From an uncultured Chloroflexia bacterium (GTDB lineage: Bacteria > Chloroflexota > Limnocylindria > Limnocylindrales > CSP1-4), in assembly GCA_963766735.1 (NCBI GenBank), contig CAVYBU010000003.1, positions 325,587 through 389,586 of the forward strand: DNA of 64,000 bases. Direction: 5' to 3'. The notes under the pieces are model-generated. The model searched no databases. It was not told where the DNA came from and saw nothing but the letters and a program-made list of their open reading frames with translations. This document shows, in pieces, positions 1,876 through 23,964 of this stretch (its first letter is position 1; every line of letters begins with the position of its first letter). The position numbers were made by a program, and so were the translations under genes.

Positions 1876-2067
1876 GAGCGGTGGAGGCTGATCCGGAATG
1901 GCAGTGCGCACGGGCAATATGCGGTTCCTGAGCACGAATCTCGTCGGGGGTGTGGCGCAACGGTGGCGCACGTGCTTTGGGAGTCCCCGGGGCCTATGCG
2001 GTGTAGGGTCGGTGCTCCTGAGCGTGGCGGCCCGAGCGGCGTAGGCACCGATCATTGGGGGCTACGC
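1876..2067 (+). repeat. Junction module J1: leader + tRNA-Pro 5' half (1945-1983) + ~85-bp element
   Basis: atgcggttcctgagcacga..cgggggtgtggcgcaacggtggcgcacgtgctttgggag|tccccggggcctatgcgg...gcgtaggcaccgatcattgggggctacgc. Confidence 0.9.
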
Positions 2068-2274
2068 GACCACGGCTCCGGTCCCAACACCAGCCGGTCG
2101 GTGGCCCGGTCGTAGAGGGCGATTGAGGCGGCTTCGGCCTCGAACACCGCTGCAGTGACATCCACCACCGAGTGCAGGACGGCACGCGCTGCCCGCCTCG
2201 AGGCGCCGCGCAGTTTCGGCGCGCATGGCGATCTCCCGCAGCAGCTGGAGCGTCTCCGGGCCAAGGGTCCTCAT
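2068..2274 (-). pseudogene. Truncated N-terminal fragment of a GAF-domain sensor protein, cut next to J1
   Basis: MRTLGPETLQLLREIA...(frameshift)AVLHSVVDVTAAVFEAEAASIALYDRATDRLVL is a typical GAF start; it stops inside J1. Confidence 0.6.
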
Positions 2275-2295
2275 TTCGGGATCACTCCCGGCCGG

Positions 2296-2994
2296 TCACC
2301 GTTCCGCTGCTCGCTCCAGGCGGGCGACATCCGGGATGATCAGCGTGTCTCGTTCGATCAGCAGCAGGCCGCGCGCTGTCATGTCCGCGAGCAGGCGGTT
2401 CACCGACTGGCGCGTCCCGCCGATCATGGCCGCGAGGTCGCTCTGCGTGTACGGCCAATCCAGACGGACTCCCAGCGAGCTGTCGGGTTGGGCCTCGTGG
2501 GCGAGCCGGACGATGCGGCTGGCCAGCCGCCCCGGCAGGTCGAGGAAGAGCAGCTCCTCAACGTGGGTGGTCAGCCGCCGCAACTCCGTCACGAGTGCTG
2601 CGAACAGGGCCTTCCTCAGCAGCGGATTGGTTGCCACCAGGTCCTCGAAGCGGCGGCGGCTCAGAACCAGGGCTTCGGTTGGCTCCATGGCGACGGCCGT
2701 CGCCGAGTGTGGCGCGCCGTCGAGCAGCGCGAGCTCTCCGAAGAAGTCACCGCGCGAGAGCGTGGCGATGATGGCGTCGTCCTCGGAATCCGGGTTGGAC
2801 AGTACGATCTTCACCGAGCCTGACTCGACGATGTAGAGCGATTCGCCGGGGTCGCCCTGGTGGAAGATGGTCTCGTGCTTCCGGTAGCGGCGCACGCGGA
2901 GCGTTCCGGCGCACAGCGCCAGGGTCTCCTCGTCGACCCGGTCGAACAGCGCACAGCTTCGGAGCGCCTCGATCGCGACGCTGGCCTCGGTCAT
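2296..2994 (-). CDS. Crp/Fnr family transcriptional regulator
   Basis: cNMP-binding motifs 'IFHQGDPGESLYIVESGSVKI' and 'FFGELALLDGAPHSATAVA'; HTH 'TQSDLAAMIGGTRQSVNRLL'; GAGAAGGA RBS before ATG 2994. Confidence 0.93.
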   Translation of the reverse strand: MTEASVAIEALRSCALFDRVDEETLALCAGTLRVRRYRKHETIFHQGDPGESLYIVESGSVKIVLSNPDSEDDAIIATLSRGDFFGELALLDGAPHSATAVAMEPTEALVLSRRRFEDLVATNPLLRKALFAALVTELRRLTTHVEELLFLDLPGRLASRIVRLAHEAQPDSSLGVRLDWPYTQSDLAAMIGGTRQSVNRLLADMTARGLLLIERDTLIIPDVARLERAAER

Positions 2995-3075
2995 CGGTCC
3001 TTCTCCTCGCGACGGCCCGGCGTGAACGCATGGTCCATCGTAGTGCGCCGGCCGGGCGCCGGGGAGGAGAAGCGA

Positions 3076-3102
3076 GAGGCGGCGCCGATCTGGCGCCGCC
3101 TC
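3076..3102 (-). terminator. Hairpin downstream of the repeat-peptide gene
   Basis: gaggcggcgcc-gatct-ggcgccgcctc, a perfect 11-bp stem with a pyrimidine-rich tail on the minus strand. Confidence 0.55.
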
Positions 3103-3167
3103 CTGTTCAACTGGTGGGGTGGGACGTGATGACGCCCGTCGTGCCTCCCAGACCCATGCGCGGACGA

Positions 3168-3452
3168 TCAGGAAATGGCTTTCTTCATGTGGGCCTCGAC
3201 GTCGTCCTCGGTCGCCGACGGGGCCTTCTTCATGCCCTCGGGCTGGACGGGCTTGTCCTCGAACCCGATGGCCTTCTTCATGTGGGCCTCGACGTCGTCC
3301 TCGGTCGCCGACGGGGCCTTCTTCATGCCCTCGGGCTGGACGGGCTTGTCCTCGAACCCGATGGCCTTCTTCATGTGGGCCTCGACGTCGTCCTCGGTCG
3401 CCGACGGGGCCTTCTTCATGCCCTCGGGCTGGACGGGCTTGTCCTCTGACAT
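3168..3452 (-). CDS. 94-aa peptide made of three 31-aa repeats (EDKPVQPEGMKKAPSATEDDVEAHMKKAIGF)
   Basis: AGGAG RBS upstream, GC3-rich codons, downstream hairpin. Confidence 0.75.
   Translation of the reverse strand: MSEDKPVQPEGMKKAPSATEDDVEAHMKKAIGFEDKPVQPEGMKKAPSATEDDVEAHMKKAIGFEDKPVQPEGMKKAPSATEDDVEAHMKKAIS
3175..3446. repeat. Tandem repeat, 93-bp period, ~2.9 near-identical copies
   Basis: atggc(c/t)ttcttcatgtgggcc units start at 3175, 3268 and 3361. Confidence 0.95.
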
Positions 3453-3714
3453 CTTCTTGCTCCTGTGCTTCCATGGCCTGGTCCATCGCCTTGACCGGAC
3501 CCGTCCTGATCCCCGCGGCGACCTGAGTCCAGCACCGCGGACGCCGCCTCCAGTGTCGTCATGACAACATCAGAAACCAACTCTGGAGGGCCCGCTGGAG
3601 CACCGGCTCATGCTTCGAGGCTGAACCCTGACGACGGATCAACTGCCTGCTTGACGGCCTGCTTCTCGTACGGCGCTTCGCCCCGAACCCCGGCTCAGGT
3701 GCCTGGAGCTCGAA

Positions 3715-3990
3715 CTACCTTGAACGGGCCAGCTTGACGCTGAGCTTCGGGTTCCGACGCTGAGCTTTGGGTTCCTGGGCATCGAGCTCGCTTTGACGGG
3801 CCTGCTGCGCCTCGAACTCCTGCGCGCGCGCCCGGAGGTCGCGCCGGAGTTCGGCTTCCCGCACCCGGCCCAGGTCCTGGACGACCCCCGGGTGCGGGAA
3901 CATGGAGCTACCTTCGGTGTCCTTCTGATCTTCGTTCGTGCGCGTGGCCCTCTCGCGTCCCAGTTCGTCGTCCTTCGGATCGCCCATCAT
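3715..3990 (-). CDS. Small charged protein with a DTEGSSM motif and a coiled tail
   Basis: MMGDPKDDELGRE...KDTEGSSMFPHPGVVQDLGRVREAELRR; GGGAGAAGG RBS. Confidence 0.6.
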   Translation of the reverse strand: MMGDPKDDELGRERATRTNEDQKDTEGSSMFPHPGVVQDLGRVREAELRRDLRARAQEFEAQQARQSELDAQEPKAQRRNPKLSVKLARSR

Positions 3991-4312
3991 CCTTCTCCCG
4001 TCCGAAACCCTTGCGGCTGATCGGACCTGCGTTGCGATCGAACTGGGATCATCCTGGGCCGCGGACCCCGCGGCGTCTAGTGCTCGAGGTGACATTGATG
4101 GGGTCATTCGGTGGACATGCCTCCCGGGCCGCGGGCATCTTCAGGGTCCCCGACGAGGCTCGCTGGACGGCGCTCAGGGTCGGCACGCCGCAGCCGGGGA
4201 GCCGTTCGCAGGGAACGCGGGAGCCGTTCGACGCTGGCACACCCGCAGGCCGCCCCGTATCCTCAGGCACCGCTCCCGCTGGGCGAACCGCGACCCGGAG
4301 GTCCTCGCCGTC

Positions 4313-7300
4313 ATGACCTGCTCGAGTTGCGGCACCGAGAACGAGGCGGGTCGCAAGTTCTGCACCGAGTGCGCCACCCCGCTCTCGGCCTCGTGCCCGG
4401 CGTGCGGCACCGCCAACCCGCCCGGCGCCAAGTTCTGCGGCGAGTGCGCGACGCCGCTCGTCCGCGCCCGTCCGGCGCGCGGCCGACCGTGCCGCGGGAC
4501 CCGGCGGCCCGGGGCGCACGCCATCCGGCAGCCCCGTGCCCGTCGCCGAGCGCCGGCTGGTGTCGCGTCCTGTTCGCCGACCTCGTGGGCTTCACGCCGT
4601 TCGCCGAGGAGCGCGACGCGGAGGAGGTGCGCGAGACGCTGACGCGGTACTTCGACCTCGCGAGCGGACGTGATCGGCCGGTACGGCGGCACGGTCGAGA
4701 AGTTCATCGGCGACGCCGTCATGGCCGTCTGGGGAGCGCCCATCGCGCACGAGGACGATGCCGAGCGGGCCGTGCGCGCCGCGCTGGAGCTGCGTGGACG
4801 CCGTCCGCGCGCTGGGCCCCGGGATCGCAGGCCCGTGCCGGGGTCCTCACCGGCGAGGCGGCGGTCACCCTCGGGCGCCACCAACCAGGGGATGGTCGCG
4901 GGCGACATCGTCAACACCGCCTCCCGGCTCCAGTCGGTCGCGGCGCCGGGCACCGTGCTCGTGGGCGAGGCGACGGAGCGGGCCGCGTCGCGCGCGATCG
5001 CCTTCGAGCCGGCCGGCGAGCACGCGCTCAAGGGGAAGGCGGCACCCGTCCCCGCCTGGCGCGCCCTGCGCGTCGTCGCCGAGCGCGGTGGCCGCAACCG
5101 GAGCGACGCCCTCGAGGCGCCGTTCGTCGGCCGGGACGAGGAGCTCCGCCTGCTCAAGGACCTGTTCCATGCCACCGGGCGGGAGCGCCGTCCGCGCCTG
5201 GTGAGCGTCATCGGGCCGGGCGGCATCGGCAAGAGCCGCCTCGCCTGGGAGTTCGCGAAGTACCTCGACGGCCTCGTGGAGCCGGTCTGGTGGCACGCGG
5301 GGCGCTCGCCCGCCTATGGCGACGGGATCACCTTCTGGGCGCTGGGCGAGATGGTCCGGGGCGGGCCGGGCTGGCCGAGGCCGACGACGAGGCGACCACG
5401 CGGGCACGGATCGCCGAGACCGTGCGGACCACGTGCAGCGATCCTGCCGAGCGGCGCTGGATCGAGCCCGCGCTGCTGGCGCTGCTGGGGGTCGACGACC
5501 GGGTTCGGGCCGGACGAGCTGTTCGCCGCCTGGCGCACGTTCTTCGAGCGGCTGGCGGCGAACGCCCCCGTGGTCATGGTGTTCGAGGACCTCCAGCACG
5601 CGGATCACGGGCTGCTCGACTTCATCGACCACCTGATGGAGTGGAGCCGGGGGGTGCCGATCATGATGGTCACGCCTCGCCCGGCCGGAGCTGCTCGACC
5701 GGCGCCCCGACTGGGGCGCGGGCAAGCGCTCGTTCACCTCGATCCACCTCGAGCCCCTCTCGCCGGCCGACATGGAGCGCCTGCTCGCGGGCCTGGTGCC
5801 CGGCCTGCCGGCCAGGCCGCCGCGGCCATCGTGGCGCGAGCGGACGGCGTGCCGCTGTACGCGGTCGAGACCGTCCGGATGCTCCTCGCCCAGGGACGCC
5901 TGGTGCTCGAGGACGGGGTGTGCCGGCCCGTTGGGACCCTCGACGAGGTCGCGGTGCCCGAGACGCTCACCGCCCTCATCGCGGCGCGCCTCGACGGCCT
6001 GGACCCGGCCGACCGGGCGCTGGTCTCCGATGCCGCGGTCCTGGGCCAGGCGTTCAGCGTGCCGGGCCTCGCGGCGGTCGCAAACCAGGCGAGGCCGAGC
6101 TCGAGCCCAGGCTCCGGGAGCTCGTCCGGCGCGAGCTGCTCACGCTCGACGTCGACCCCCGCTCGCCCGAGCGCGGCCAGTACGCGTTCGTGCAGGCGCT
6201 CATCCGGGAGGTCGCGTACCACACGCTCGCGCGGCGGGACCGCACGCTCCGCCACCTCGCGGCGGCCCGCTACTTCGAGAGCCTCGGAGCAGACGAGCTC
6301 GCGGGCGCCCTCGCGGGCCACTACCTCTCGGCGTACCGGAACACCCAGCCCGGTCCCGAGGCCGATGCGCTCGCCGCCCAGGCCCGGGTCGCGCTCCGGG
6401 CCGCCGCCGACCGGGCCACCGCGCTCGGCTCGCACGCGCAGGCGGTCGGCTTCCTCGAGCAGGCCCTGGAGATCACGACCGATCCCGCCGACCGGGCACA
6501 GCTCCACGCGAGCGCGCTCGCCGCCGCGGGCGAGGACCTCGACCTCGCGGCCGTGGAGCGCCACGCGGAGGCCGCGGTCGCGGAGCGGCGGCGAACCGAG
6601 GACCGGGAGACCATCGCCCAGGCGATCGCCGACCGGGCGTACCTGATCAACGTCTCGCTCTGGGACCCGGCGCGCTCGCTCGCGATCGCCTCCGAGGCCT
6701 GGGAGGAGTTCTCGGACCTCGAGCAGACCCCGGCCGGTGTCGCGCTGATGGCGGCGCTCGCGTGGTCGTACCTGGTTCTCGACGACATCGCCCAAGCGAT
6801 GTCCTGGTTCGACCGACTCCTGCCGATCGCGGAGCGGCTCGGGCTCCTCGAGGCGACGGCGGGGGGCATCCTCGGGCGGGGCGAGTCACTGCTCGTCGCG
6901 GGCCGACCTCGGGAGGGCATGGTCCTGCTGCGCGGGGCCCACCAGCTCGCCCTCGCGTACGACCTGCGCGACCGCGAGCTCGAGGGCCCGGATCCTCATG
7001 ACCGCCAATGAGCAGTGGGGCGAGCCCGCTGTGGGCCTCGCGCTTGCCCGCGAGGGGCTCGAGATCGGCCGGCGCCGCGGGTCCCGCCTGTACGGATCCT
7101 GGATGGTCGGGAACGGCTGCGCCTGCGCGCTGCGCACCGGCGACTGGGACTGGGCCGCGGGGCTGCTCGATGAGTGGCTGGTCATCGAGTCCACCGAGAT
7201 CAGACGGGCCGAGTTCTTCGTTGACCGCGCGATCCTCCGCTCGCACCGGGGCGAGGACCCGACCGGGGACCTCGCGGAGGCGGCCCGGATCCTGGGCGAG

Positions 7301-7831
7301 GGCCGAAACACCTGGACAGAGCTCGGGTCCTGGGAACTCCTGGCCGGGGCATGGGCCGCGTTCGCCGGCGGCCGTCCCGACGAGGTCCGCCGGCTCGTGG
7401 AGCGCGCGGCCGAGCTGACGAGAACCCTCGCCCCGATCGCATACCCGCTCCTCGTCCGGAGTGCGCTGTGGGCCGGTGACGCCGAGGGGGCCGCCTCCGC
7501 GCTCGCCTCGATGGAGGCCTCGGGATACCTCGGCGCGGCCCTCGCGGCCGACCGTCTCGTCGCCCGGGCCGGGATCGATGCCCTCGAGGGCCGCGGCCCG
7601 GCCGCGCTGGCCGGGTACCGCGAGGCGCTCCGCGCCTACCGCAAGCTCGGGCTCGCCTTCGACGAGGCGGCGGCAGCCGTGGACATGGCGGTCCTCCTGC
7701 CGTCCCCGGAGCGCGGCGCCTCCGACTTCGGGACGGCGATCGGGGCCGCCCGCGACACGCTCGAGCGTCTCGGCGCGCGCCCTTTCCTCGCCCGGCTCGA
7801 CGCGGCTCGCACGAAGCAACCGACCGGGTGA
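4313..7831 (+). CDS. Double zinc ribbon - class III adenylate/guanylate cyclase - AAA ATPase - TPR protein (multiple frameshifts)
   Basis: MTCSSCGTEN..FCTECA..CPACGTAN..FCGECA; 'VLFADLVGFT'; 'VEKFIGDAVMAVWG'; 'GDIVNTASRLQS'; Walker A 'GPGGIGKS'; 'VFEDLQHAD'; TPR-like C-terminus, pieced together from several frames. Confidence 0.9.
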
Positions 7832-7902
7832 GCGACAGGCTCCCCGGCCGGGGGCAAGGCCGCGACGGTCTGTCAATGCTGGTGGTCGTGCGCCGCGAGC
7901 GC

Positions 7903-8087
7903 CGCAGGGTAGGCTTCCGGGTGTCGCTCGCGAAGCAGATGCGCTTCCTGAGCACGAGCTTCGTCGGGGCGTGGCGCAACGGTGGCGCACGTGCTTTGGG
8001 AGTCCCCGGGGCCTATGCGGTGTAGGGTCGGCCCGTGCCGAGCACGAACCGCCGAGCGGCGTAGGCGCCGATTATTAGGGGCTACGC
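7903..8087 (+). repeat. Junction module J2 (tRNA-Pro 5' half 7965-8002)
   Basis: TAGGCT 7910; atgcgcttcctgagcacga; tRNA half identical to 23890-23927; element ends gcgtaggcgccgattattaggggctacgc. Confidence 0.92.
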
Positions 8088-8788
8088 GAGTTCAAATTGT
8101 GCCCAGTCGGTCCACCGAAACGGCCCGGACCGGGATGGACGTCGAGTCGTCCTGGGCGCCCGAGAGTTGCCCCCTACAGGCTGGAGAGGACGACCATCAG
8201 GGCAAGGACGAAGACAATTCCTGACAGTTCGAGTGCGAACCCCAGGCGCAGCCGACGGACCGTGTCGGCGCGCCCAGCGGCGACCCGTGCCTCTGTCGGG
8301 ACTGCCCACAGGGCATCGTCGCCGGCCAGCCGCCGGGCTGCCGGGCTCGTGATGAGCCCCCCAACGGCGAAGATGGCGACCGTGACAGCGATCGCAGCGA
8401 GCCAAACGATCCCGTACTGGCTGCTAAGCGCGTCGATAGATCGTATCGGTCCGAAGACCGTTCCCCGCACGACCCCCAAGACGACGGCGAGCAGGGCCGC
8501 ACCGATCAGAAGCCGTTCCGGGCCGAGGATCACGGTTCGGACGAGGTCGCGCTGGCGTTCGATCGGCTGCCCGAAGACGAACGGCAGCAAGACGAGGCTG
8601 GCGAACACGGATGCGCCCAGCCACGCGGCTCCGCCGAGGATGTGGAGGAACTGGACGAGCGCGAGCCCGTAGTCCATGTGGCTCTCCGATGCGGACCGGT
8701 AGTTCGGCATTCGTATGTATGAGGCGGTCAGGCTGCCACGTCAACAGGAGGGCGGCTTTCAGGACGAACCAGGCTCGGCGGAGCCCGG
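8088..8788. repeat. Cassette C2 (701 bp), duplicated at 17905-18605
   Basis: Same length and ends (gagttca.attgtgccc ... ggcggagcccgg); about a dozen substitutions by eye. Confidence 0.93.
8174..8677 (-). CDS. Four-TM membrane protein (CopD/DUF2269-like)
   Basis: MDYGLALVQFLHILGGAAWLGASVF pattern; GGAGAG RBS; four hydrophobic segments. Confidence 0.75.
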   Translation of the reverse strand: MDYGLALVQFLHILGGAAWLGASVFASLVLLPFVFGQPIERQRDLVRTVILGPERLLIGAALLAVVLGVVRGTVFGPIRSIDALSSQYGIVWLAAIAVTVAIFAVGGLITSPAARRLAGDDALWAVPTEARVAAGRADTVRRLRLGFALELSGIVFVLALMVVLSSL

Positions 8789-16810: not shown

Positions 16811-16973
16811 AGGACCACCCCATGAGGCCTGATACCTAATGTCCGTAGCGTGTCCGCGGCGAGCCCTACGCACACCACGCCCTTCTTCCCGTGTCCTGGA
16901 ACCGAGCTCATCGTCCGAGGTCGTGGCGCGATGGCTCTCATCATCGGCTCAGTCCACGTCCACCTGTGGGTTA

Positions 16974-17445: not shown

Positions 17446-17762
17446 AGCAGGCTCCCTTCACGAGACTCACACCAGCCGGAACCGTGCGGCTGCACTCTGG
17501 GACCGGTGGCGACCCCACGCAGGCAGGCTGGGTGCCGGGCGCTCGAGACGCCACGTGCCGGAGCGACCGTCATGCAGGGCCGAAGGTAGCCGTATCGTCT
17601 GTGGTCGGATCGTCCCTGCCGGTACAGGGTCGGCCGCGCCCGCCAATGGCTATCCACTCGTAGAAGGGAGGGGGCCGATGACGAGGATCGGTTTCCAGGG
17701 CGCCATCAGGGATCGTTCCGGCCGCGTCAGGGGTCGAGCGGACGCCCGAGATATGCTCCTCA

Positions 17763-17904
17763 AGCGGTGTAGCCTAGGCGTCCGCTTCTCGAACGAGGAA
17801 GCACATGCGCTTCCTGAGAGTCCCCGGGGCCTATGCGGTGCAGGTTCGAGGGTCCTGAGCGTGGCTGGCCGAGCGGCGTAGGCACCGATTAATAGGGGCT
17901 ACGC
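17763..17904 (+). repeat. Junction module J4, lacking the tRNA half (~48-bp deletion)
   Basis: gcacatgcgcttcctgag joined directly to agtccccggggcctatgcgg...gattaataggggctacgc. Confidence 0.9.
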
Positions 17905-18494
17905 GAGTTCAGATTGTGCCCAGTCGGTCCACCGAAACGGCCCGGACCGGGATGGACGTCGCGTCGTCCTGGGCGCCCGAGAGTTGCCCCCAATAGGCTG
18001 GAGAGGACGACCATCAGGGCAAGGACGAAGACAATTCCTGACAGTTCGAGTGCGAACCCCAGGCGCAGCCGACGGACCGTGTCGGCGCGCCCAGCGGCGA
18101 CCCGTGCCTCTGTCGGGACTGCCCACAGGGCATCGTCGCCGGCCAGCCGTCGGGCTGCCGGGCTCGTGATGAGCCCCCCAACGGCGAAGATGGCGACCGT
18201 GACAGCGATCGCAGCGAGCCATACGATCCCGTACTGGCTGCTAAGCGCGTCGATAGATCGTATGGGTCCGAAGACCGTTCCCCGCACGACCCCCAAGACG
18301 ACGGCGAGCAGGGCCGCACCGATCAGAAGCCGTTCCGGGCCGAGGATCACGGTTCGGACGAGGTCGCGCTGGCGTTCGATCGGCTGCCCGAAGACGAACG
18401 GCAGCAAGACGAGGCTGGCGAACACGGATGCGCCCAGCCACGCGGCTCCGCCGAGGATGTGGAGGAACTGGACGAGCGCGAGCCCGTAATCCAT
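17889..18494 (-). CDS. Second copy of the four-TM membrane protein; stop codon lost, reads into J4
   Basis: Same protein as 8174-8677; CTG TAG changed to CTA TTG, adding ~34 aa. Confidence 0.75.
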   Translation of the reverse strand: MDYGLALVQFLHILGGAAWLGASVFASLVLLPFVFGQPIERQRDLVRTVILGPERLLIGAALLAVVLGVVRGTVFGPIRSIDALSSQYGIVWLAAIAVTVAIFAVGGLITSPAARRLAGDDALWAVPTEARVAAGRADTVRRLRLGFALELSGIVFVLALMVVLSSLLGATLGRPGRRDVHPGPGRFGGPTGHNLNSRSPY

Positions 18495-18605
18495 GGGGCT
18501 CTCCGATGCGGACCGGTAGTTCGGCATTCGTATGTATGAGGCGGTCAGGCTGCCACGTCAACAGGAGGGCGGCTTTCAGGGCCAACCAGGCTCGGCGGAG
18601 CCCGG
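17905..18605. repeat. Cassette C4, second copy of C2
   Basis: 701 bp, colinear with 8088-8788. Confidence 0.93.
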
Positions 18606-18793
18606 GAGCGCTGTAGGCTACTCTTCTGGTCATCGCTCGGGGCGCACATGCGCTTCCTGAGCGTGAAGCTCGCCGGGGCGTGGCGCAACGGTGGCGCACG
18701 TGCTTTGGGAGTCCCAGGGCCTATGCGGGGTAGGGTCGGGGGCCCGAGCACGACCGGGCGAGCGGCGTAGGCACCGATTATTAGGGGCTACGC
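18606..18793 (+). repeat. Junction module J5 (tRNA-Pro 5' half 18674-18711)
   Basis: TAGGCT 18614; tRNA half; element ending gcgtaggcaccgattattaggggctacgc. Confidence 0.92.
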
Positions 18794-18844
18794 GAGCACG
18801 ACAGACAGCCTCGTTGCCGACCGCGCTGACGGGTGGGCTTTGCG

Positions 18845-19782
18845 TCACTTGCTGATGAGGGTCGACCGCCAGGCCACCTCGCTGTCCGGCGTGATCGCGA
18901 GAAGCGTGATCGCCGACCCGGCCCCGGCAGGCTCGACCGCCGTTGCGTAGACCGTCCCGTCGGCGCCGGCCACCACGACATCCCAGCGCCCGGCCGGGTT
19001 CGTGAGCTTGACCGGCCAGCCGTCAACGACCCGGCCGTCCGGCCCGACCGCGACGACTCGCCTGCTGCTCTTCGCATCAGCCGGCGCCAGAAGGACCAGA
19101 AGCACATGCTCACCGGGGCCGAGGGCCGGCACCGTCCGCCACACGCCGCATCCTGTATCGCCCAGCGGCATTCGCCCTGCTCCCCGATGGGCGCACCGGC
19201 CGACCACGGCCACCCGTCGCGGACGGTGCCGTCGGGTCCGAGCGCGTGGACGACGACGCGGTCGCGGTCGTCGACGCCCAGGACCCACGCGGATCCGCCT
19301 GGCTCGAGCACGGGCCTGATCGGCGCGTACCCGCCCGCAAAGGTCGCCTCGGAGATGCGCGGCGCGACTCCGGCCCGGGGGAGGCCGTGTGACCGGCGCA
19401 ATGCTCGGCAGCGCGCGTCACCCGAATTCCAGGAGGGGGAGACCCGGATCCGTCCGTCACAGGCGTCACGCTGCCGCTCGCGGGCGGCAAGCGGCAGCTG
19501 CGACGACCGGCGATGGGATGCGATGCAGCCAGACGCACGATCGGGCTCGCGCAGGCACGGGCGTGGGGGCATCGGGCGGCCAGGATCGGATCCGCGGCGC
19601 TCGGGCAGGGTGACCCGCGGCAGGTGCTCGAGGGCCAGGGCATCGCCCCGGAACGCATGCGCCCTGCGGGCACAGGCCGGGCACGCGGCGAGGTGCGCCT
19701 CGAGGCGGCCGCGCTCGTACGCCGCAAGCGGGTAGTCGATCGCGGTGGCGGCGAGTGCGAGGAACGTGTCGTGCGTGGTCAT
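18845..19782 (-). CDS. zf-HC2 anti-sigma factor with an extracellular propeller-like tail (frameshifted or partly deleted)
   Basis: 'LEAHLAACPACA'; start overlaps the sigma stop; 'DGRVVDGWPV' repeats. Confidence 0.6.
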
Positions 19783-20353
19783 TGGGACGCCTCCGCCGAC
19801 TCGAGCCGGCTGCGGACCCGGATGCGGGTCCGGCAGAGCAGGGTGCGGGTGGCTGCCTCGGAGCGCCCGATCGCGGCGGCGATCTCGGCCCCGCTGAAGC
19901 CTTCGGATGACAGGAGCAGCGCCGCCCGGGCTCCGGGGTCGAGGTCCGCGAGGATGCCCACGATCGCGGCCCGGCCCTCGCGCGCGAGGTAGCTGGCCTC
20001 GGGGGTGACGGTCGTCACCGGCGGCGCGGTGCGGTGGTCTGGATCCTGACCAGCCCGCGCAGCGCGGTGGAGAGGCGCCGGCCGCGGCTGACCGCGAGGT
20101 TGGCACCCACCCGGTACAGCCAGGCCCGGATGTTGTCGGGGGTCCGCCCCGCCCGCACCTCGCGGGTCAGGCGCAGGTAGGCCTCCGAGAGCAGGTCCTC
20201 GGCGACCCCGGGGTCGCGCGCGGTCCGGACCAGGAACGCGTACACCTCCGCGTGGTGGTCGGTCCAGGCGGCCACGACCAGCGCGTCCGCCTGCGCGGCG
20301 CGGGTGGCGCCCGCGGCGTCCACCGATTCGAGAGGAGAGGTCACCGGTTCCAC
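19779..20353 (-). CDS. ECF sigma factor (frameshift near 20030)
   Basis: 'AEDLLSEAYLRL', 'RAWLYRVGANL'; region 4 'GFSGAEIAAAIGRSEAATRTLLCRTR'. Confidence 0.85.
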
Positions 20354-20356
20354 GCC

Positions 20357-20387
20357 GATGAGACGCTATGCCCCGCCTGGTGTTTCA
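20357..20387 (-). promoter_or_regulatory. ECF-type promoter AAC-N16-CGTCTCATC (autoregulatory, probably leaderless)
   Basis: tgaAACaccaggcggggcatagCGTCTCATC directly before the GTG; same motif at 21870-21900. Confidence 0.6.
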
Positions 20388-20501
20388 GGGCAGGGGCAAG
20401 AGGGCGACGACGGGCGGGTGCGAATGACCGCGGGCAGGGTGTCCCGGAAGGGCGACCAAGCGGTGAGGCCGCGGGCGGGGAGTCGCGCCGGACAGGGCAG
20501 G

Positions 20502-21842
20502 TCAGCGCAACAGCCAGGCGACCTGCTGGCCTTCCGCCGTGGATCCGCTGATGCCGACGACACCGGCCGGCCCGTCCGCGACGAGCCGCGGGCCGTAGTC
20601 GAACTGCGGCCGCTCGGCCTGCGGCAGCTGCGTCCAGGAGACGCCGTCGTCGCTCACCCAGGTCTCGTGCCTCACCCCGCCCCCTTCCCTGCTCTCGGCG
20701 CCGACGGCCACATAGCCGCGATCCGAGAGGACGAGATCCGTCACGGCGGTCACGCTCACCGTGTCTTCGGGGTCCTCCGCGACGGCGGGCGGCCCGGCCG
20801 GGAGCTCCTGCGACTTCCAGCTGGTGCCGTCGGAGGACGACCAGATCGTCGGCGCGCCGGCGCGTCCCGCGTCGACGTCCCAGCCATTCCGCCCGGCGAG
20901 CACCCAGGGGTTGCGGTCGCCCGCCGGGGCCGTGCCCGCGAACACCTCGGCTCCCTGGCCCGGGAAGCCGTCGAGGACGCTCCACGACGCTCCGTCGGCC
21001 GTGATCGCGAGTGTCGTGTTGAGCTCGTAGCCGCTGGCCGCGAGGAGATAGGGCCCGGACGGGTTCGCGACGCCCACGGGAGCGCGGTCGTAGCCCTCCC
21101 AGCCGGCCGGGGGCACCTGCTCGGTGGCTGCCCATGACGTGCCGTCGGCGGAGTGCCACAGCATCCTGCCTCCCAGGCTCTCGCCGGACCAGTCAGAGAG
21201 CGCCGCCGCCCAGCCGCCCTCCGCCACCGGCCATGCCGCGACGAGCTCGCTCAGCTCACCCTTCCCGTTCCCCGTGTAGGCGCGGCGCCAGGCGACGCCG
21301 TCGTCCGAGATCCAGGCGATGGGCGAAATCGAGCAGTCAGGCCCGCCGCCCGTGCTGCCGGGTTCGGTGAGACTGCACGGCGTGTGGCTGTAGCCGCCGA
21401 CGACGAGCACCTCGCGCCCGTTGGTCGCGATCGCCCGGCCGAGCAGGCCGTTCGCATCGGTCGCTTCCGAGCGGTCGCCCTTCAGCGGGAGCTTCACGTT
21501 CTTCCAGGACGCGCCGTCAGCCGAGAACCAGACGCTGCCGGTGGTCCCTTCGAGGGCGACGTAGCCCTCGTCGAACCCGATGATGCCGTTGACGCGAGTC
21601 ACCGGGATGACCCCCAGGCGGTGCCAGGCGAGCGTGTCGGCTGAGCCCGTCCAGGACGACGCCGACGGGCCGGGAGACCCCGGCGAGGGTGCCGCCGTCG
21701 GTGGGATCGGGGCGGAAGTCGCAGTCGGCGACGCGGTCGGAACTGCTGTTGACGGAACTGGGTCCGGCGTTGTCGAGGCTGCCGGCGCAACGCAACCCGC
21801 GACGACAAACAGCACGGCCAGCGCCCCGAGGGCTCGAGTCAT
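20502..21842 (-). CDS. Lipoprotein with Asp-box/BNR-like repeats (beta-propeller)
   Basis: VVAGC lipobox; repeated 'WFSADGASW', 'WISDDGVAW', 'WSSSDGTSW'. Confidence 0.8.
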   Translation of the reverse strand: MTRALGALAVLFVVAGCVAPAASTTPDPVPSTAVPTASPTATSAPIPPTAAPSPGSPGPSASSWTGSADTLAWHRLGVIPVTRVNGIIGFDEGYVALEGTTGSVWFSADGASWKNVKLPLKGDRSEATDANGLLGRAIATNGREVLVVGGYSHTPCSLTEPGSTGGGPDCSISPIAWISDDGVAWRRAYTGNGKGELSELVAAWPVAEGGWAAALSDWSGESLGGRMLWHSADGTSWAATEQVPPAGWEGYDRAPVGVANPSGPYLLAASGYELNTTLAITADGASWSVLDGFPGQGAEVFAGTAPAGDRNPWVLAGRNGWDVDAGRAGAPTIWSSSDGTSWKSQELPAGPPAVAEDPEDTVSVTAVTDLVLSDRGYVAVGAESREGGGVRHETWVSDDGVSWTQLPQAERPQFDYGPRLVADGPAGVVGISGSTAEGQQVAWLLR

Positions 21843-21869
21843 GACCCACCTCTCACAGCTGCGAACGAT

Positions 21870-21900
21870 GATGAGACGCGCAACACGAGCAGGCGTTACC
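21870..21900 (-). promoter_or_regulatory. ECF-type promoter AAC-N16-CGTCTCATC
   Basis: ggtAACgcctgctcgtgttgcgCGTCTCATC upstream of the lipoprotein. Confidence 0.6.
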
Positions 21901-22211
21901 GCGCGCCGGCCGCGAGCCGGTGTCCTCGCATCTGAGGAGGGATCTCCGTGCCCAGGATGGATGCCGGGGAGTCCCGGCGGCTGGCCCACCGCGCCGTCGA
22001 CATCGTCGCCGACATCTCGCCGGCACCCAGGGCGACCCCTCGCAGCCGGCCGCGCTCCCGGTCGGCCCGGACCGCGCTGGCCGCTCCTGGCGGGATCGCT
22101 GGGTGAGCGGCCAGATATTGGGGCCACCCCAGTCGAAGACCGGTAACAGACAGGGGCGTCCGGGCGTCCCGTGGTCGTAGATGTGCCCTTCACCTCGCTC
22201 GAGGAGAGCAG

Positions 22212-22589
22212 ATGACCACCCATCGCCAGCTAGTCGGCCGGATCACCGTGGCGCTGCTCCTCATCGTGATGGCAGCCGGGTGCAGCCGGTTTGGTCCTCA
22301 GCTGACCATCGGCGTCGACCTCACCGGCGGTCCGAAGGAAGCGACGCTGACCGTCGACTCGTCCGGCCCGGGCATGACCGGTGGCGAGGACGTAGTGATC
22401 CTCAATGGGGAGCGGTTTGGGATGAGCATGCCGCTCCCGTCCACGTGGGAAGTCAAGGTCGACGGCAAACACATCATCGGCTCGGGCGATCGGACCGGCG
22501 CGCTCCCGTCACCGGGCCAGGGGCAGGACGTGACGATCTGTATCCGGGTCGCCGCGGATGGCACCGTGAAGCTCGTTGACGCCTGCTAG
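22212..22589 (+). CDS. Hypothetical lipoprotein
   Basis: GAGGAG RBS; 'ALLLIVMAAGC' lipobox. Confidence 0.7.
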   Translation: MTTHRQLVGRITVALLLIVMAAGCSRFGPQLTIGVDLTGGPKEATLTVDSSGPGMTGGEDVVILNGERFGMSMPLPSTWEVKVDGKHIIGSGDRTGALPSPGQGQDVTICIRVAADGTVKLVDAC

Positions 22590-22859
22590 GTCGCTGCGGC
22601 GAGGCAGCCAGGCCCGAGCGGCTGACCAGCTCGAGTCAGCGACAGCGACAGCCGGGAACGAGGACTCGACTTCGCCCCGGTCGGCCAGGGCCGCTGGCGG
22701 CTCGTGGCGGGATCGCAGGACCGGGGCACCGGCGAGGACATCGACAGGGACCGCCTCGGAGGTGATCGTGGCGGCGAAGCCGCGTCCCTCGCTGATCGTG
22801 GCCGGAGGTCCGAACAGGATCTGGAGCCGGTCGATCAGGAGCGCGAGATGACGAAACAA

Positions 22860-23276
22860 CTAGCGGGGGTCGGGCACCATCACCGGACGCAGCGCGAGAC
22901 CCTCGATCCCCGCGAAGTCGTCCGGGTTGCACGTGTAGAGCGGGAGGCCATTGGCGATCGCCGTGGCCGCGATCAACGCGTCGAGCGCCCGGGCGGCCGG
23001 CTTCCGGCCGGACCGGCGGAGCGACGACGCGACCTGGCCGAACGCGCGGGCGGCGGCCGCGTCGAACGGGAGGGGGTCGAAGTCCGCCTCGGCCTGCTGG
23101 ACATGAGCCAGACGACGGGCTCGCTCGGCCTCGTCATTCGTCACGAGTGGCCCGACCGAGAGTTCGGCGAGGGTGATCGCCGAGATGAGCGGGACGTCGG
23201 GCAGGACGGACGGAACGTCGATCCGCGGCAGCAGCAGCAGGGTGCTAGTGTCGAGCAGGCCCTCCGGGTCGCTCAC
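22860..23276 (-). CDS. vapC: PIN-domain toxin, VapC family
   Basis: 'GLLDTS', 'ISAITLAELSVG', 'DALIAATAIANGLPLYTCNPDDF'. Confidence 0.92.
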   Translation of the reverse strand: MSDPEGLLDTSTLLLLPRIDVPSVLPDVPLISAITLAELSVGPLVTNDEAERARRLAHVQQAEADFDPLPFDAAAARAFGQVASSLRRSGRKPAARALDALIAATAIANGLPLYTCNPDDFAGIEGLALRPVMVPDPR

Positions 23277-23509
23277 AGGCCGGGTTCGATCACCGTGTCG
23301 ACCTCGTGGCGCAGCCTCGTCGCATCGACTTCCGGCAGGCGACGCCAGCGCTCGAGGAGCGCGGCCGCCGACAGACCCCGCGGGCGGATGGGCCGCAGCT
23401 CGGCGACCGGTCGCCCGTCGCGCGTCACCGTCACGTGCCCGCCGGTCTCGACGCGGTCGACGACCTCACCTCCGCGGTTGCGCAACTCCCGGATCGTCAC
23501 GGTGTCCAC
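23273..23509 (-). CDS. vapB: Phd/YefM family antitoxin
   Basis: 'VTIRELRNRGGEVVDRVETGGHVTVTRDGRPVAELRP'; 4-bp overlap with the toxin. Confidence 0.88.
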   Translation of the reverse strand: MDTVTIRELRNRGGEVVDRVETGGHVTVTRDGRPVAELRPIRPRGLSAAALLERWRRLPEVDATRLRHEVDTVIEPGL

Positions 23510-23516
23510 GCCAAGA

Positions 23517-23544
23517 ACCGTATCACCGGTGATACACTTGTCAA
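23517..23544 (-). promoter_or_regulatory. TA operon promoter TTGACA-N16-TACGGT with a perfect 16-bp operator palindrome (23520-23535)
   Basis: gtatcaccggtgatac overlaps the spacer and -10; GTG start 7 nt after the -10. Confidence 0.7.
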
Positions 23545-23821
23545 GTGCCACCATGAGCCCCGGGATTGACCGCCAGCGCGATGCCATACAGCCCGCTGCC
23601 GGCGTTGTCGCCGGCGACGATGATGGTCATAGCGACCATGCATGCCACGCAACCGCCGATCACGAGCCCGCCGCCGATCCTTCCCATCCGCATCTCAGGC
23701 TCTCGGTCGATGACAAGGTCGCACGAGGCTGCTTCGAGCAGCCCGCGGCCAACCTTGGCGGCGGTCAGGCGATCCGGCGAGATCCGAACGGCTCCGGCCG
23801 CCGATCGCGGCGCAGGCGCAT

Positions 23822-23889
23822 GAGCGCTGTAGGCTAGTCTTCTGGTCGTCGCTCGGGACGCACATGCGCTTCCTGAGCACGAAACCTGT
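23822..23889 (+). promoter_or_regulatory. Leader/promoter of tRNA-Pro(TGG), homologous to the left half of all junction modules
   Basis: gagcgctgTAGGCTagtcttctgg...gcacatgcgcttcctgagcacga. Confidence 0.6.
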
Positions 23890-23964
23890 CGGGGCGTGGC
23901 GCAACGGTGGCGCACGTGCTTTGGGAGCACGAGGGTGTGGGTTCGAATCCCACCGCCCCGACCA
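23890..23964 (+). tRNA. tRNA-Pro(TGG), intact, encoded CCA
   Basis: CGGGGCG/CGCCCCG acceptor stem; GCGC D stem; CGTGC-TTTGGGA-GCACG anticodon arm; GTGGG-TTCGAAT-CCCAC T arm; 75 nt. Confidence 0.96.

What the first reader, a model, noticed from the sequence alone, without database searches (positions are those of the whole stretch)
1876..23964. Integrase-less, tRNA-Pro-anchored gene-cassette array (integron-like, growing on the 5' side of the tRNA)
Seen: five same-orientation modules (1876, 7903, 8789, 17763, 18606) each consist of a leader with a TAGGCT-like box, the 5' half of tRNA-Pro(TGG) ending at the anticodon loop (absent in J4), and a shared ~85-bp element. They separate unrelated 0.7-8.8 kb gene blocks. 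The last block ends in the same leader followed by the only intact tRNA. Known: many tyrosine integrases cross over in the 7-nt tRNA anticodon loop, usually restoring the 3' part, and tandem islands regenerate attP at their junctions. Inference: here each unit restores the tRNA 5' half plus its promoter, so each junction is an attP-like site. The units are non-autonomous cassettes (no integrase, replication or transfer genes) moved by a recombinase encoded elsewhere. That would be a cassette capture and shuffling platform like an integron but without attC or intI.
Basis: partly seen in the sequence, partly recalled or inferred. Interest (0 to 1): 0.93.

Follow-up and report, generated by a model that had tools for sequence, protein, structure and literature searches.

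The report
Mobile-element array upstream of tRNA-Pro
A stack of small gene blocks has piled up in front of one proline tRNA gene in an uncultured soil or sediment bacterium, each block bringing its own copy of the tRNA's front half; sister species carry the enzyme that builds such stacks, so this is an unusual example of a known kind of genomic island pile-up, not a new kind of system.

Summary
Five same-strand modules lie upstream of the only intact tRNA-Pro(TGG). Each has a leader, the tRNA 5' half and an ~85-bp arm; J4 lacks the half. Two more copies lie left of the window, and the inserted region is ~36.5 kb. The modules are not scattered: 9 of 10 significant genome hits are in this array.

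The system is not integrase-less. In sister species of the same Limnocylindria genus, a 316-340 aa Xer-like tyrosine integrase sits ~120-220 bp upstream of this tRNA, divergently, inside the tRNA-proximal unit. I found it there in 9 genomes. One integrase-bearing element is 99.9% identical between two species whose flanks are 83-88% identical. G000 has no such integrase.

Of 50 inter-module units in 22 genomes, 44 show no integrase trace. One 0.7-kb integrase-less unit is duplicated here. It is also 97% identical in a species whose backbone gene is 72-76% identical.

Best reading: tandem site-specific accretion on the 5' side of a tRNA gene. Most units are CIME-like (att sites kept, integrase lost or never present). 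Close precedents are Streptococcus CIMEs, Dehalococcoides ssrA islands and tycheposon islands. Integron membership fails. Excision, circles and trans-mobilisation were not shown.

The parts
1..1872 (+). Right part of unit c2, which starts at the element remnant C3:323832-323916 left of the window. TPR-repeat protein ORF 25-1716; the full ORF starts at C3:325122.
   Evidence: Pfam TPR_MalT/TPR_16/TPR_12. Unit borders from nhmmer. 74.6% DNA match to unit c2 of G076.
1873..2077 (+). Junction J1: degenerate leader, tRNA-Pro 5' half (1947-1983) and ~85-bp P' arm.
   Evidence: nhmmer 158.5 bits; alignment.
2078..7893 (.). Unit c3 (5.8 kb). CRP/cNMP-binding regulator 2296-3486(-), with 3 x 93-bp repeats at 3175-3453. 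A 966-aa ORF 4111-7011(+), with no Pfam hit, whose DNA resembles the TPR gene of unit c2 of G076. ORF 6998-7831(+).
   Evidence: Pfam cNMP_binding 8.9e-29 and HTH_Crp_2; repeats; 64% DNA match to G076 c2.
7894..8098 (+). Junction J2: leader with GGTAGGCT box, tRNA 5' half (7966-8002) and P' arm.
   Evidence: nhmmer 188.4 bits.
8099..8784 (.). Unit c4 (0.69 kb): one membrane-protein ORF 8174-8710(-), weakly CopD-like. No integrase.
   Evidence: Pfam CopD E = 0.0025, below cut-off. 98.5% identical to 17913-18602 and 97% to G023:C26:3916-4545.
8785..8990 (+). Junction J3: leader (TGTAGGCT/GCTAGTCT boxes), tRNA 5' half (8860-8896) and P' arm.
   Evidence: nhmmer 195.1 bits.
8991..17760 (.). Unit c5 (8.8 kb), probably composite with a breakpoint at 9656. 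ECF sigma fused to a zf-HC2 anti-sigma 10826-12493(+); Kelch-repeat protein 14267-15436(-); several ORFs with no family.
   Evidence: Pfam. 9128-9656 recurs on C30, joined directly to a tRNA 5' half. In a contig of run X5 the same stretch is joined to the intact tRNA.
17761..17912 (+). Junction J4: leader (AGCGGTGTAGCC box) fused directly to the P' arm. The tRNA 5' half is deleted.
   Evidence: nhmmer hits to profile positions 6-62 and 107-204; alignment.
17913..18602 (.). Unit c7 (0.69 kb): second copy of the CopD-like membrane-protein unit, ORF 17889-18527(-).
18603..18804 (+). Junction J5: leader, tRNA 5' half (18675-18711) and P' arm.
   Evidence: nhmmer 185.6 bits.
18805..20465 (.). Left part of c8: sigma/anti-sigma unit. 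zf-HC2 anti-sigma 18781-20106(-); ECF sigma region 2 at 20015-20353(-). Its own leader is cut off at 20465, inside the AGCGGTGTAGCC box.
   Evidence: Pfam. Copies on C30 (92-96%) and C5 (93%); C5 continues into a leader. Contigs of runs X1 and X3 carry the loose end TAGCCTAGGTC at 20465. Homologous whole units in G019 c2 and G081a c2.
20466..23818 (.). Right part of c8: 573-aa ORF 20502-22223(-) and a PIN/Phd toxin-antitoxin pair, 22860-23276(-) and 23273-23587(-). No integrase.
   Evidence: Pfam PIN 2.6e-10 and PhdYeFM 1.1e-08. The match to G073 c2 starts at about window 20334 and is 97% identical over 3488 bp.
23819..23964 (+). Leader (23819-23889, boxes TGTAGGCT/GCTAGTCT at -63/-58) plus the only intact tRNA-Pro(TGG), 23890-23964. 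This is the regenerated target (attR-like).
   Evidence: ARAGORN; Rfam tRNA 68.4 bits.

Best explanation
The region is a tandem array of site-specifically integrated units on the 5' side of tRNA-Pro(TGG), in a MAG of Chloroflexota, class Candidatus Limnocylindria.

The recombinase is a small Xer-like tyrosine integrase: an N-terminal SAM-like domain plus the catalytic domain, with no recognisable arm-binding domain. Its attP consists of three parts:
- a P arm, which is a copy of the tRNA's upstream leader with its -10-like box plus tRNA positions 1-38;
- a crossover region at or just left of the 3' edge of the anticodon loop;
- a ~85-bp P' arm.

Integration splits the tRNA gene. The displaced chromosomal leader and 5' half become attL, joined to the P' arm. 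The element's own leader and 5' half fuse to the chromosomal 3' half and regenerate a working, promoter-equipped tRNA gene. Further integrations into the regenerated gene push older units leftwards. Every internal junction then has the full P-core-P' (attP-like) structure.

In sister species the tRNA-proximal unit still carries the integrase. In this genome none does. All units here are CIME-like: att-flanked, with no integration gene. They are presumably immobile unless an integrase-bearing relative arrives.

Shown: the architecture, the restriction to this locus, the integrase adjacency in relatives, recent inter-species transfer of an integrase-bearing element, and mosaic sharing of integrase-less units.

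Inferred: the crossover position, the promoter function of the leader, the direction of array growth, and any present-day mobility.
For: Architecture and restriction to the locus:
- Modules have a constant orientation and are confined here. Of 10 nhmmer hits at E<=1e-3 in the 3.6-Mb genome, 9 are in this array and 1 is on C30.
- In 27 fetched regions from 22 genomes, 79 of 79 module hits share one strand within their region and lie upstream of the tRNA.
- Identity between the junctions and the intact tRNA gene covers the leader and tRNA positions 1-38, and stops after TTTGGGAG.

The integrase:
- A cognate integrase (PF00589 90.7 bits plus SAM-like domains) starts ~120-220 nt from the tRNA 5' end, divergently. 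This holds in G019, G023, G005, G068, G013, G085, G009, G083 and G049 (coordinates).
- It is full-length in 7 of the 27 fetched regions. Fragments occur in 2 more: beside a junction in G050 and beside the tRNA in G063.
- Outside the genus, 15 of 15 loci examined have a tRNA gene 90-240 nt from the integrase start. Eight are divergent (5' side: Pro-TGG, Val-GAC, Pro-GGG, Thr-CGT). Seven are co-directional (3' side).
- A 100/100-supported clade of 7 integrases is all 5'-side.

Mobility and variation:
- The integrase-bearing element of G009 and G083 is 99.9% identical at both ends (3089 and 1248 bp). Their flanks are 83-88% identical.
- In G006 a conserved SnoaL-like gene abuts the tRNA. In G000 its homologue lies 36.5 kb away.
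- Array content varies. By my reading, 27 of 70 genus genomes have at least 1 junction and 10 have at least 3.

Motifs:
- AGCGSYGTAGGS occurs 15 times in the window against 3.6 +/- 1.9 expected. Thirteen of the 15 are in the modules, all on the + strand, at 2-3 per full junction. This fits protein-binding arm sites.
- The leader carries G[GC]TANNNT. That motif is found upstream of 30 of 62 tRNA genes of this genome, against 1.3% of random 100-nt windows.
Against: - No integrase of this family exists in G000. The assembly is 93.85% complete, so nothing here shows that the array is active.
- No circular form was found. Of 19 metagenome contigs with a junction, 0 have a terminal overlap, and IMG/VR has no junction at all. 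The public runs are held only as contigs, so excision could not be looked for.
- The sequence right of the overlap in the junctions (GTCCCCGG...) is not an inverted copy of the left half-site. In the tRNA, the anticodon stem does supply that symmetry. The exact crossover is therefore unproven.
- The integrase has no arm-binding domain that would explain the repeated arm motif.
- No module was detected in the leftmost 8.4 kb of the inserted region, C3:312961-321334. The origin of that part is open.
- The simple sigma-70 scan finds no canonical promoter in the leader.
Confidence: 0.8

Rival explanations
1. Active cassette platform. The integrase-less units are true non-autonomous cassettes. A transient or minimal integrase element parked next to the tRNA excises them as attP-bearing circles and reinserts them in trans, so the array works as a capture-and-shuffle system analogous to an integron.
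For: - Of 50 inter-module units in 22 genomes, 44 have no integrase trace at E<=1e-5. Five carry a full integrase and one a fragment. Meanwhile their ~200-bp modules stay 75-94% alike across species. That is hard to square with simple neutral decay of once-autonomous elements.
- The 0.69-kb CopD-like unit occurs twice in G000 at 98.5%. It is 97% identical in G023, whose backbone gene is 72-76% identical. It was not found in the closest relative G073, whose backbone is 84% identical.
- The sigma/anti-sigma unit sits at different ranks in the arrays of G019, G081 and G000. It also occurs on C30 and C5.
- In G019 the integrase sits in a 1.95-kb unit next to the tRNA, with 5 junctions further upstream.
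- A 709-nt contig of run X5 joins window 9210-9656 directly to the intact tRNA. That is a different arrangement in another population.
Against: - No circle, empty junction or excision product was seen.
- Of the 10 genomes with at least 3 junctions, only G019 and G085 have the cognate integrase.
- Shared units could spread by homologous recombination between modules, or by transfer of whole array segments.
- The G023 copy lies on a 7.6-kb contig of a MAG, so mis-binning cannot be excluded.
- The left border of the G023 copy is not a module.
- Cassette genes point both ways, so there is no integron-like common promoter.
Confidence: 0.3
2. Pure fossil record. All integrase-less units are decayed or internally deleted remains of once-autonomous islands. 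They are fixed in the chromosome and are rearranged only by homologous recombination between the repeated modules.
For: - Integrase fragments lie beside a junction in G050 and in metagenome contig L070, and beside the tRNA in G063.
- There are fused units with truncated leaders at 20465 and 9656, a junction without the tRNA half (J4), and element-only remnants.
- G000 and most long arrays lack the integrase.
- Reviews describe exactly this decay route to CIMEs (PMC5704250, passages read).
Against: - Only 1 of the 45 inter-module units without a full integrase shows a remnant.
- The modules are well conserved compared with the cargo.
- A 97%-identical integrase-less unit is shared by species with a 72-76% identical backbone gene.
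Confidence: 0.4
3. The modules are a dispersed repeat (MITE- or SINE-like, tRNA-derived) or a structured RNA gene, not recombination sites.
For: - One degenerate copy lies away from the tRNA, at C30:258635-258757. One element-only hit lies on another contig in G076.
- A small hairpin (GCGTAG...CTACGC) recurs in the P' arm.
Against: - Nine of 10 significant hits are in the array, all on one strand.
- Rfam finds only the tRNA.
- Single-strand folds have z-scores of -2.1 to +0.4.
- The alignment of 36 junctions shows conserved blocks, and by eye no consistent compensatory pairs. I ran no formal covariation test.
Confidence: 0.03
4. Assembly or binning artefact: the repeats were created or mis-ordered by metagenome assembly.
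For: - G000 is a 35-contig MAG with 4.2% contamination.
- Contig C5 ends inside a leader and carries a variant of one unit.
- Short-read contigs of public runs break at the modules.
Against: - The same architecture is found in independent assemblies of many species. These include contigs of 1.3-1.8 Mb in G019, G063 and G073, and 19 metagenome contigs, of which 5 carry 2-3 full same-strand modules.
Confidence: 0.04

Closest known systems
CIMEs and tandem accretion at tRNA genes (Streptococcus ICESt1/ICESt3 family and IME/CIME composites). Review PMC5704250, passages read. Pavlovic 2004 and Bellanger 2011 are cited there; I did not read them.
   Same: Units are flanked by att sites and lack integration and transfer genes. 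They sit in tandem with integrase-bearing elements at one target gene. New arrivals integrate into the att site that holds the regenerated gene end.
   Different: - Those elements use the 3' end of the target; this array uses the 5' half and must carry a promoter.
- The arrays here are much longer, up to 7 junctions, and the units are smaller (0.3-8.8 kb).
- No conjugation module was seen.
- The host is an uncultured Chloroflexota lineage.
- Cis- or trans-mobilisation is not shown here.
Dehalococcoides ssrA genomic islands (PMC3146451, passages read)
   Same: Both are in the phylum Chloroflexota. Both show multiple tandem islands bounded by direct repeats of a target-gene fragment. There, 16 islands have an integration module and 15 do not; the authors suggest the latter are cis-mobilizable elements. 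Content differs between strains.
   Different: - There: serine recombinase (DsiB), tmRNA gene, a 20-bp repeat of the 3' end, islands downstream of the gene.
- Here: tyrosine Xer-like integrase, tRNA-Pro(TGG), ~200-bp modules that include the 5' half and leader, islands upstream.
Tycheposon islands of Prochlorococcus (preprint 10.1101/2020.12.28.424599, passages read)
   Same: Tyrosine-recombinase elements integrate at tRNA genes. Neighbouring elements are separated only by a partial tRNA copy. New arrivals push older ones into the island. Degenerated remnants, fragmented integrases and extra partial tRNAs are present.
   Different: - Homology of the integrases and hallmark genes was not tested here.
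- I did not establish which tRNA half tycheposons replace.
- The cargo here is mainly ECF sigma/anti-sigma, Kelch, TPR and toxin-antitoxin genes.
tDNA islands with a 5' fragment in the Islander database (PMC4383910, passages read)
   Same: Islander records islands that displace a 5' tDNA fragment upstream, and anticodon-centred attP sites.
   Different: - Such islands are a minority: 159 of 3919 have a 5' fragment.
- Tandems of 3 or more number 4 of 3919. Islander counts a tandem only when each member has its own integrase, so arrays like this one would be missed.
Integrons
   Same: A tyrosine recombinase gene lies divergently next to a fixed insertion point, followed by a row of small units, each ending in a recombination site. 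This holds only in the sister genomes that have the integrase.
   Different: - The integrase is not an IntI.
- The sites are ~200-bp double-strand-type att modules, not folded attC hairpins.
- Genes point both ways, with no common promoter.
- The integrase belongs to the tRNA-proximal unit instead of to a fixed platform.

Membership tests
Tandem tDNA-integrated islands / CIME accretion | Each unit is bounded by direct repeats of a fragment of the target gene, in the orientation of the intact gene. | tested here: met
   Five exact or near-exact copies of tRNA positions 1-38 lie upstream of the gene on the same strand. Profile hits.
Tandem tDNA-integrated islands / CIME accretion | One intact, regenerated target gene lies at the end of the array. 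| tested here: met
   tRNA-Pro(TGG) at 23890-23964, Rfam 68.4 bits. It is the only Pro(TGG) gene among the genome's 62 tRNA genes.
Tandem tDNA-integrated islands / CIME accretion | A site-specific recombinase of matching specificity is encoded by members of the element family. | tested here: met
   Not in G000. It lies adjacent to this tRNA in 9 sister genomes and in 4 named Limnocylindria or Chloroflexota records with Pro(TGG).
Tandem tDNA-integrated islands / CIME accretion | CIME: att sites are retained, and integration and transfer genes are absent. | tested here: met
   30 ORFs of window 25-24509 and 9 ORFs of the region left of it were scanned against Pfam. No recombinase, relaxase or replication family was found. 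tblastn with the integrase was negative. Many ORFs had no family hit at all.
Tandem tDNA-integrated islands / CIME accretion | Excision and integration are demonstrated (circular form, empty site). | not testable with these tools
   Only assembled contigs of public runs were available. None of 19 metagenome contigs is circular.
Integron | IntI-type integrase. | tested here: not met
   The NCBIfam integron-integrase models score 48.1 bits (cut-off 265) and 27.2 bits (cut-off 435). The best matches are the XerC and XerD models, also below their cut-offs.
Integron | attC sites: imperfect palindromes that fold as single-stranded hairpins. | tested here: not met
   ssDNA folds of three modules (five strands folded) give z-scores of -0.54, -1.74, -1.67, +0.37 and -2.08. 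No module-spanning hairpin appears.
Integron | Co-oriented, mostly promoterless cassettes read from a common promoter. | tested here: not met
   Family-supported ORFs lie on both strands: 2296-3486(-), 10826-12493(+), 14267-15436(-), 18781-20106(-).
MITE / dispersed repeat | Many copies at unrelated loci, in both orientations. | tested here: not met
   Nine of 10 significant hits are in one array, all on the + strand. One degenerate copy lies on C30.
Tycheposon | Homologous hallmark integrase and replication genes. | not tested
   Only the architecture was compared, from passages of 10.1101/2020.12.28.424599.

The most novel reading that the evidence does not exclude
A genus-wide, tRNA-anchored cassette system in Limnocylindria. 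Small integrase-less units each carry a ~200-bp attP-like module that includes a promoter and the 5' half of tRNA-Pro(TGG). A minimal Xer-like integrase element, which parks itself divergently next to the tRNA, excises, exchanges between species and reinserts these units in trans. This would be a double-strand, tRNA-regenerating functional analogue of the integron, and it trades mainly ECF sigma/anti-sigma and other sensory modules.
Probability: 0.3. Interest if true: 0.75.

Novelty: new variant of a known kind. Interest (0 to 1): 0.5.

Why it matters
The locus is an unusually clean and long example of island accretion on the rare 5' side of a tRNA gene. In that geometry every incoming element must bring both a promoter and half of an essential gene. 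The array recurs across an uncultured, environmentally widespread genus, so there is a natural series of arrays to compare. At least 27 of 70 genomes carry a junction.

Within one integrase family, both 5'-side and 3'-side geometries occur. This makes it testable how anticodon-loop integrases switch the side they restore.

If the integrase-less units prove to be trans-mobilised, this would be a second, mechanistically different way of building cassette arrays. The cargo would be regulatory and sensory modules instead of resistance genes. If they are fossils, the locus is still a useful dated record of successive integrations.

Tried and rejected
- Rfam scan of window 1-26000 at E<=0.1: only the tRNA, plus a chance mir-22 match below threshold.
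- Simple sigma-70 and terminator scans of the leader and of J2-J3: nothing.
- Serine recombinase PF00239 in G000: no hit.
- tblastn of the cognate integrase against G000: only XerC/D-like hits at 24-31% identity.
- Junction-specific pattern in IMG/VR: 0 hits.
- The same pattern in JGI metagenomes: 19 contigs. None has a terminal overlap, so there is no circular form. Five carry 2-3 full same-strand modules: L073, L077, L078, L080 and L084. A sixth, L071, has a second weak 33-nt hit on the opposite strand, which I disregard. One, L070, has an integrase N-terminal fragment beside a junction.
- Public runs: all four runs laid are held as contigs, so starts, circles and rare excision products could not be seen. 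Most listed joints have sides of 20-30 nt and fall in repeats; I do not use them. I use only the 709-nt X5 contig (side 255) and the loose ends at 20465. Parts of the stretch without cover say nothing.
- I looked by eye for compensatory pairs in the 36-junction alignment and saw none that were consistent. I ran no formal covariation test.
- I found no clean empty site with conserved flanks on both sides for an exact attB reconstruction. The DNA just left of the leftmost junction differs in every genome compared.
- I did not use structure prediction, complex prediction, the large protein searches or the protein atlas. The question did not need them.
The island maps of PMC3146451 and the tycheposon supplement might show closer parallels, including 5'-side cases.

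Full report
**Observation**

The window (G000:C3:325587-389586) holds one intact tRNA-Pro(TGG), at 23890-23964. Repeat finding, alignment and a profile search confirm five same-strand modules. They lie at 1873-2077 (J1), 7894-8098 (J2), 8785-8990 (J3), 17761-17912 (J4) and 18603-18804 (J5). The same leader precedes the tRNA at 23819-23889.

A full module has three parts:
- a ~70-nt leader;
- tRNA positions 1-38, ending ...TTTGGGAG, which is the anticodon loop plus one base;
- a shared ~85-bp element.

J4 lacks the tRNA half. BLAST E-values between copies are 1e-23 to 1e-61.

The array extends beyond the window. A further full module (J0) lies at C3:321334-321531, and an element-only remnant lies at C3:323832-323916. 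In the single-contig genome G006, a SnoaL-like gene lies directly upstream of the tRNA. Its G000 homologue is at C3:312244-312961 (77.5% DNA identity). About 36.5 kb therefore separates that gene from the tRNA in G000. No module was detected in the leftmost 8.4 kb of that stretch. It encodes an ECF sigma factor, three Kelch-repeat proteins and a PD40 protein.

**Not a dispersed repeat**

Nine of the 10 nhmmer hits at E<=1e-3 in the 3.6-Mb genome are in this array, all on the + strand. The tenth is a degenerate copy at C30:258635-258757. Contig C5 (5.66 kb) ends inside a leader.

Elsewhere in the genome, partial tRNA copies are mostly single 3' fragments (Pro-GGG, Leu-CAA, Gly-TCC, His, Arg). 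Only Pro(TGG) has 5' fragments within its own locus, and it has five of them upstream.

**Gene content**

Pfam scans covered 30 ORFs of the window's array region and its right flank, and 9 ORFs to the left. They gave:
- a TPR protein (25-1716);
- a CRP/cNMP regulator (2296-3486, -);
- a weakly CopD-like membrane protein, present twice (8174-8710 and 17889-18527, both -);
- an ECF sigma fused to a zf-HC2 anti-sigma (10826-12493);
- a Kelch protein (14267-15436, -);
- an anti-sigma and ECF sigma pair (18781-20106 and 20015-20353, both -);
- a PIN/Phd pair (22860-23587, -).

No recombinase, relaxase or replication family was found. Many ORFs hit nothing. PF00589 has 5 hits in G000 and none on C3. 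PF00239 has no hit.

**The missing integrase exists in relatives**

Record titles of relatives place the organism in Chloroflexota, Candidatus Limnocylindria or Limnocylindrales. Searching sister genomes for PF00589 showed an integrase right beside the tRNA in G019, G009 and G023.

The protein is 316-340 aa. It has a SAM-like N-terminal domain from residue ~20 and the catalytic domain (PF00589, 90.7 bits). Its best NCBIfam matches are the XerC and XerD models, below their cut-offs. The integron-integrase models score 48 and 27 bits, against cut-offs of 265 and 435.

In a genus-wide search, 38 of 70 genomes have a family member at E<=1e-20. G000 has none. tblastn against G000 finds only XerC/D-like hits at 24-31% identity.

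Combining the coordinates, the close clade (at least 62% identity) starts ~120-220 nt from the 5' end of tRNA-Pro(TGG) and is divergently oriented. This holds in G019, G023, G005, G068, G013, G085, G009, G083 and G049. Among the 27 regions I fetched from 22 genomes:
- 7 have a full-length copy next to the tRNA;
- 2 have fragments, beside a junction in G050 and beside the tRNA in G063;
- 18 have none.

Integrase-bearing units look like ordinary small islands. G085 has a Replic_Relax protein. G009 has an HTH_17-like ORF (below cut-off), an AAA_14/DUF4143 ATPase, an IS transposase and a methyltransferase. G068 has a DUF3631 protein, a YqaJ-like protein and an MmeI-like restriction-modification enzyme.

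**Evidence that the family moves**

The integrase-bearing element is 18.8 kb in G009 and 4.7 kb in G083. The two are 99.97% and 99.92% identical over 3089 and 1248 bp at their two ends. The chromosomal flanks of the same two genomes are 88% and 83% identical.

**Arrays across the genus**

With the tRNA half plus element as query, 58 of 70 genomes match. By my reading of that listing, 27 have at least one junction-type match (query covered to position 103 or beyond). Ten have three or more: G000, G058, G082, G019, G081, G015, G063, G055, G085 and G060. In the fetched regions, all 79 profile hits share one strand within their region and lie upstream of the tRNA. Four regions without an intact tRNA were oriented by the modules themselves, so they add nothing independent to that count.

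Of 50 inter-module units, 5 hold a full integrase and 1 a fragment. The other 44 (0.3-8.8 kb) show no trace at E<=1e-5.

**Mosaic sharing of integrase-less units**

- The two 0.69-kb CopD-like units of G000 are 98.5% identical. Their similarity begins at the start of the P' arm, at about window 7996.
- The same unit is 97% identical in G023:C26, whereas the conserved right-flank gene is 72-76% identical between G000 and G023. It was not found in G073, G081, G019 or G058, and G073 is the closest relative at 84% backbone identity. The caveat is that G023:C26 is a 7.6-kb MAG contig.
- The tRNA-proximal 3.5 kb of G000 is 97% identical to G073.
- A sigma/anti-sigma unit is a complete unit in G019 (second of six) and in G081 (tRNA-proximal), 84% identical over 2.5 kb. 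In G000 it is truncated and fused to the next unit at 20465. Further copies lie on C30 and C5.
- Contigs of runs X1 and X3 continue past 20465 with the leader-type sequence of C5.
- A 709-nt contig of run X5 joins window 9210-9656, through three letters, to the start of the intact tRNA and runs on into the ferritin gene. The same joint, to a tRNA 5' half, is on C30.

Arrangements therefore differ between populations. None of this shows the mechanism of exchange.

**Site anatomy**

The motif AGCGSYGTAGGS (up to 1 mismatch) occurs 15 times in the window, against 3.6 +/- 1.9 expected. Thirteen of the 15 are in the modules and all of those are on the + strand: one in each leader and one or two in each P' arm. 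A palindrome, GAAGCRCATGCGCTTC, lies ~20-35 nt upstream of the tRNA in occupied and unoccupied sites alike.

The leader also carries G[GC]TANNNT (GCTAGTCT at -58). That pattern is found within 100 nt upstream of 30 of 62 tRNA genes of this genome, against 1.3% of random windows. This supports, by analogy only, the idea that each unit brings a promoter. The simple sigma-70 scan finds nothing.

The half-site right of the loop in the junctions does not mirror the left half-site. The integrase has no arm-binding domain. The crossover position and the role of the repeats therefore remain inferences. Single-strand folds of the modules are unremarkable (z from -2.1 to +0.4), and Rfam finds only the tRNA.

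**The integrase family beyond the genus**

All 15 loci examined have a tRNA gene 90-240 nt from the integrase start.
- Eight are divergent, meaning the element lies on the 5' side: Pro-TGG four times, Val-GAC twice, Pro-GGG once and Thr-CGT once.
- Seven are co-directional, meaning the classic 3' side: Gly-TCC twice, Val-TAC three times, Thr-CGT once and Arg-CCT once.

In a tree of 19 sequences the family is separated from XerC and XerD with 100/98 support. A clade with 100/100 support contains 7 members, all 5'-side. The other 5'-side and 3'-side lineages are unresolved. L037 was left out of the tree because its match is split.

**Comparison with what is known**

- Islander lists 159 of 3919 tDNA islands with a 5' fragment and 4 tandems of three or more. 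It counts a tandem only if every member has an integrase (PMC4383910, passages read).
- CIMEs and accretion are described for streptococcal elements (PMC5704250, passages read).
- In Dehalococcoides, also Chloroflexota, tandem ssrA islands comprise 16 with and 15 without an integration module. The authors suggest the latter are cis-mobilizable (PMC3146451, passages read).
- Prochlorococcus tycheposon islands show neighbouring elements separated by a partial tRNA, with older ones pushed inwards and decaying (preprint 10.1101/2020.12.28.424599, passages read).

The present locus belongs to this kind. It differs in four ways: the 5' geometry with a promoter-bearing ~200-bp module, the length of the arrays, the small size and high share of integrase-less units, and the host lineage. 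Integron membership fails on the integrase type, the site structure and the cassette orientation.

**Verdict**

The claims that the system is integrase-less and integron-like are not supported as stated.

The best explanation is tandem site-specific accretion with CIME-like units, at confidence 0.8. Whether those units are still mobilised in trans (about 0.3) or are fossils (about 0.4) is open and needs reads or an assay.

Noticed in passing
G000:C2:350185-356751 (outside the window): Classic 3'-side island. tRNA-Pro(GGG) is followed by a tyrosine integrase (C2:350338-351282, -). A 48-bp repeat of tRNA positions 30-77 lies 6.5 kb downstream.
   Followed up: partly
window 3175-3453: Three tandem 93-bp repeats (94-100% identical) lie inside the N-terminal part of the CRP/cNMP-binding regulator ORF 2296-3486(-).
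   Followed up: no
window 29207-29356: A run of 15-bp-period repeats (CCCGGCCCCGCTCCA-like), probably a proline/glycine-rich repeat in a coding region.
   Followed up: no
G000:C30:255984-259287: A secondary mini-array away from any tRNA-Pro gene. A copy of window 9128-9656 (87%) is joined to a degenerate tRNA 5' half plus P' arm. Copies of the anti-sigma/sigma unit follow (92-96%). G076 also has a solitary element on another contig (C6:337341-337430).
   Followed up: partly
G000:C5 (whole 5.66-kb contig): The contig ends in a sigma-unit copy (93% to window 19569-20465) followed by an intact leader. It is probably a strain variant or an unplaced part of the array.
   Followed up: partly
whole genome G000, upstream of tRNA genes: G[GC]TANNNT occurs within 100 nt upstream of 30 of 62 tRNA genes, against 1.3% of random windows. 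It is a likely lineage-typical -10 box, often 10-20 nt and sometimes 50-75 nt before the tRNA.
   Followed up: partly
L009/L010 (G009:C3) and L063 (G083:C56): The integrase-bearing element is 99.9% identical at both ends in two species whose flanks are 83-88% identical. The G009 copy has 14.4 kb of extra cargo, including an IS transposase.
   Followed up: partly
window 24030-24509: A ferritin-like gene sits between the tRNA and the conserved right-flank gene in G000 and G073. It is not at that place in G006 or G014, and it lies 1.2 kb from the tRNA in G058.
   Followed up: no
window 26044-26132 and 26455-26543: An internal 89-bp repeat (71% identical) lies within the large conserved ORF 24582-26552. 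It suggests a duplicated domain.
   Followed up: no
window 30601-30612: One exact copy of the arm motif AGCGGTGTAGGC lies outside the array on the + strand. It may be chance.
   Followed up: no
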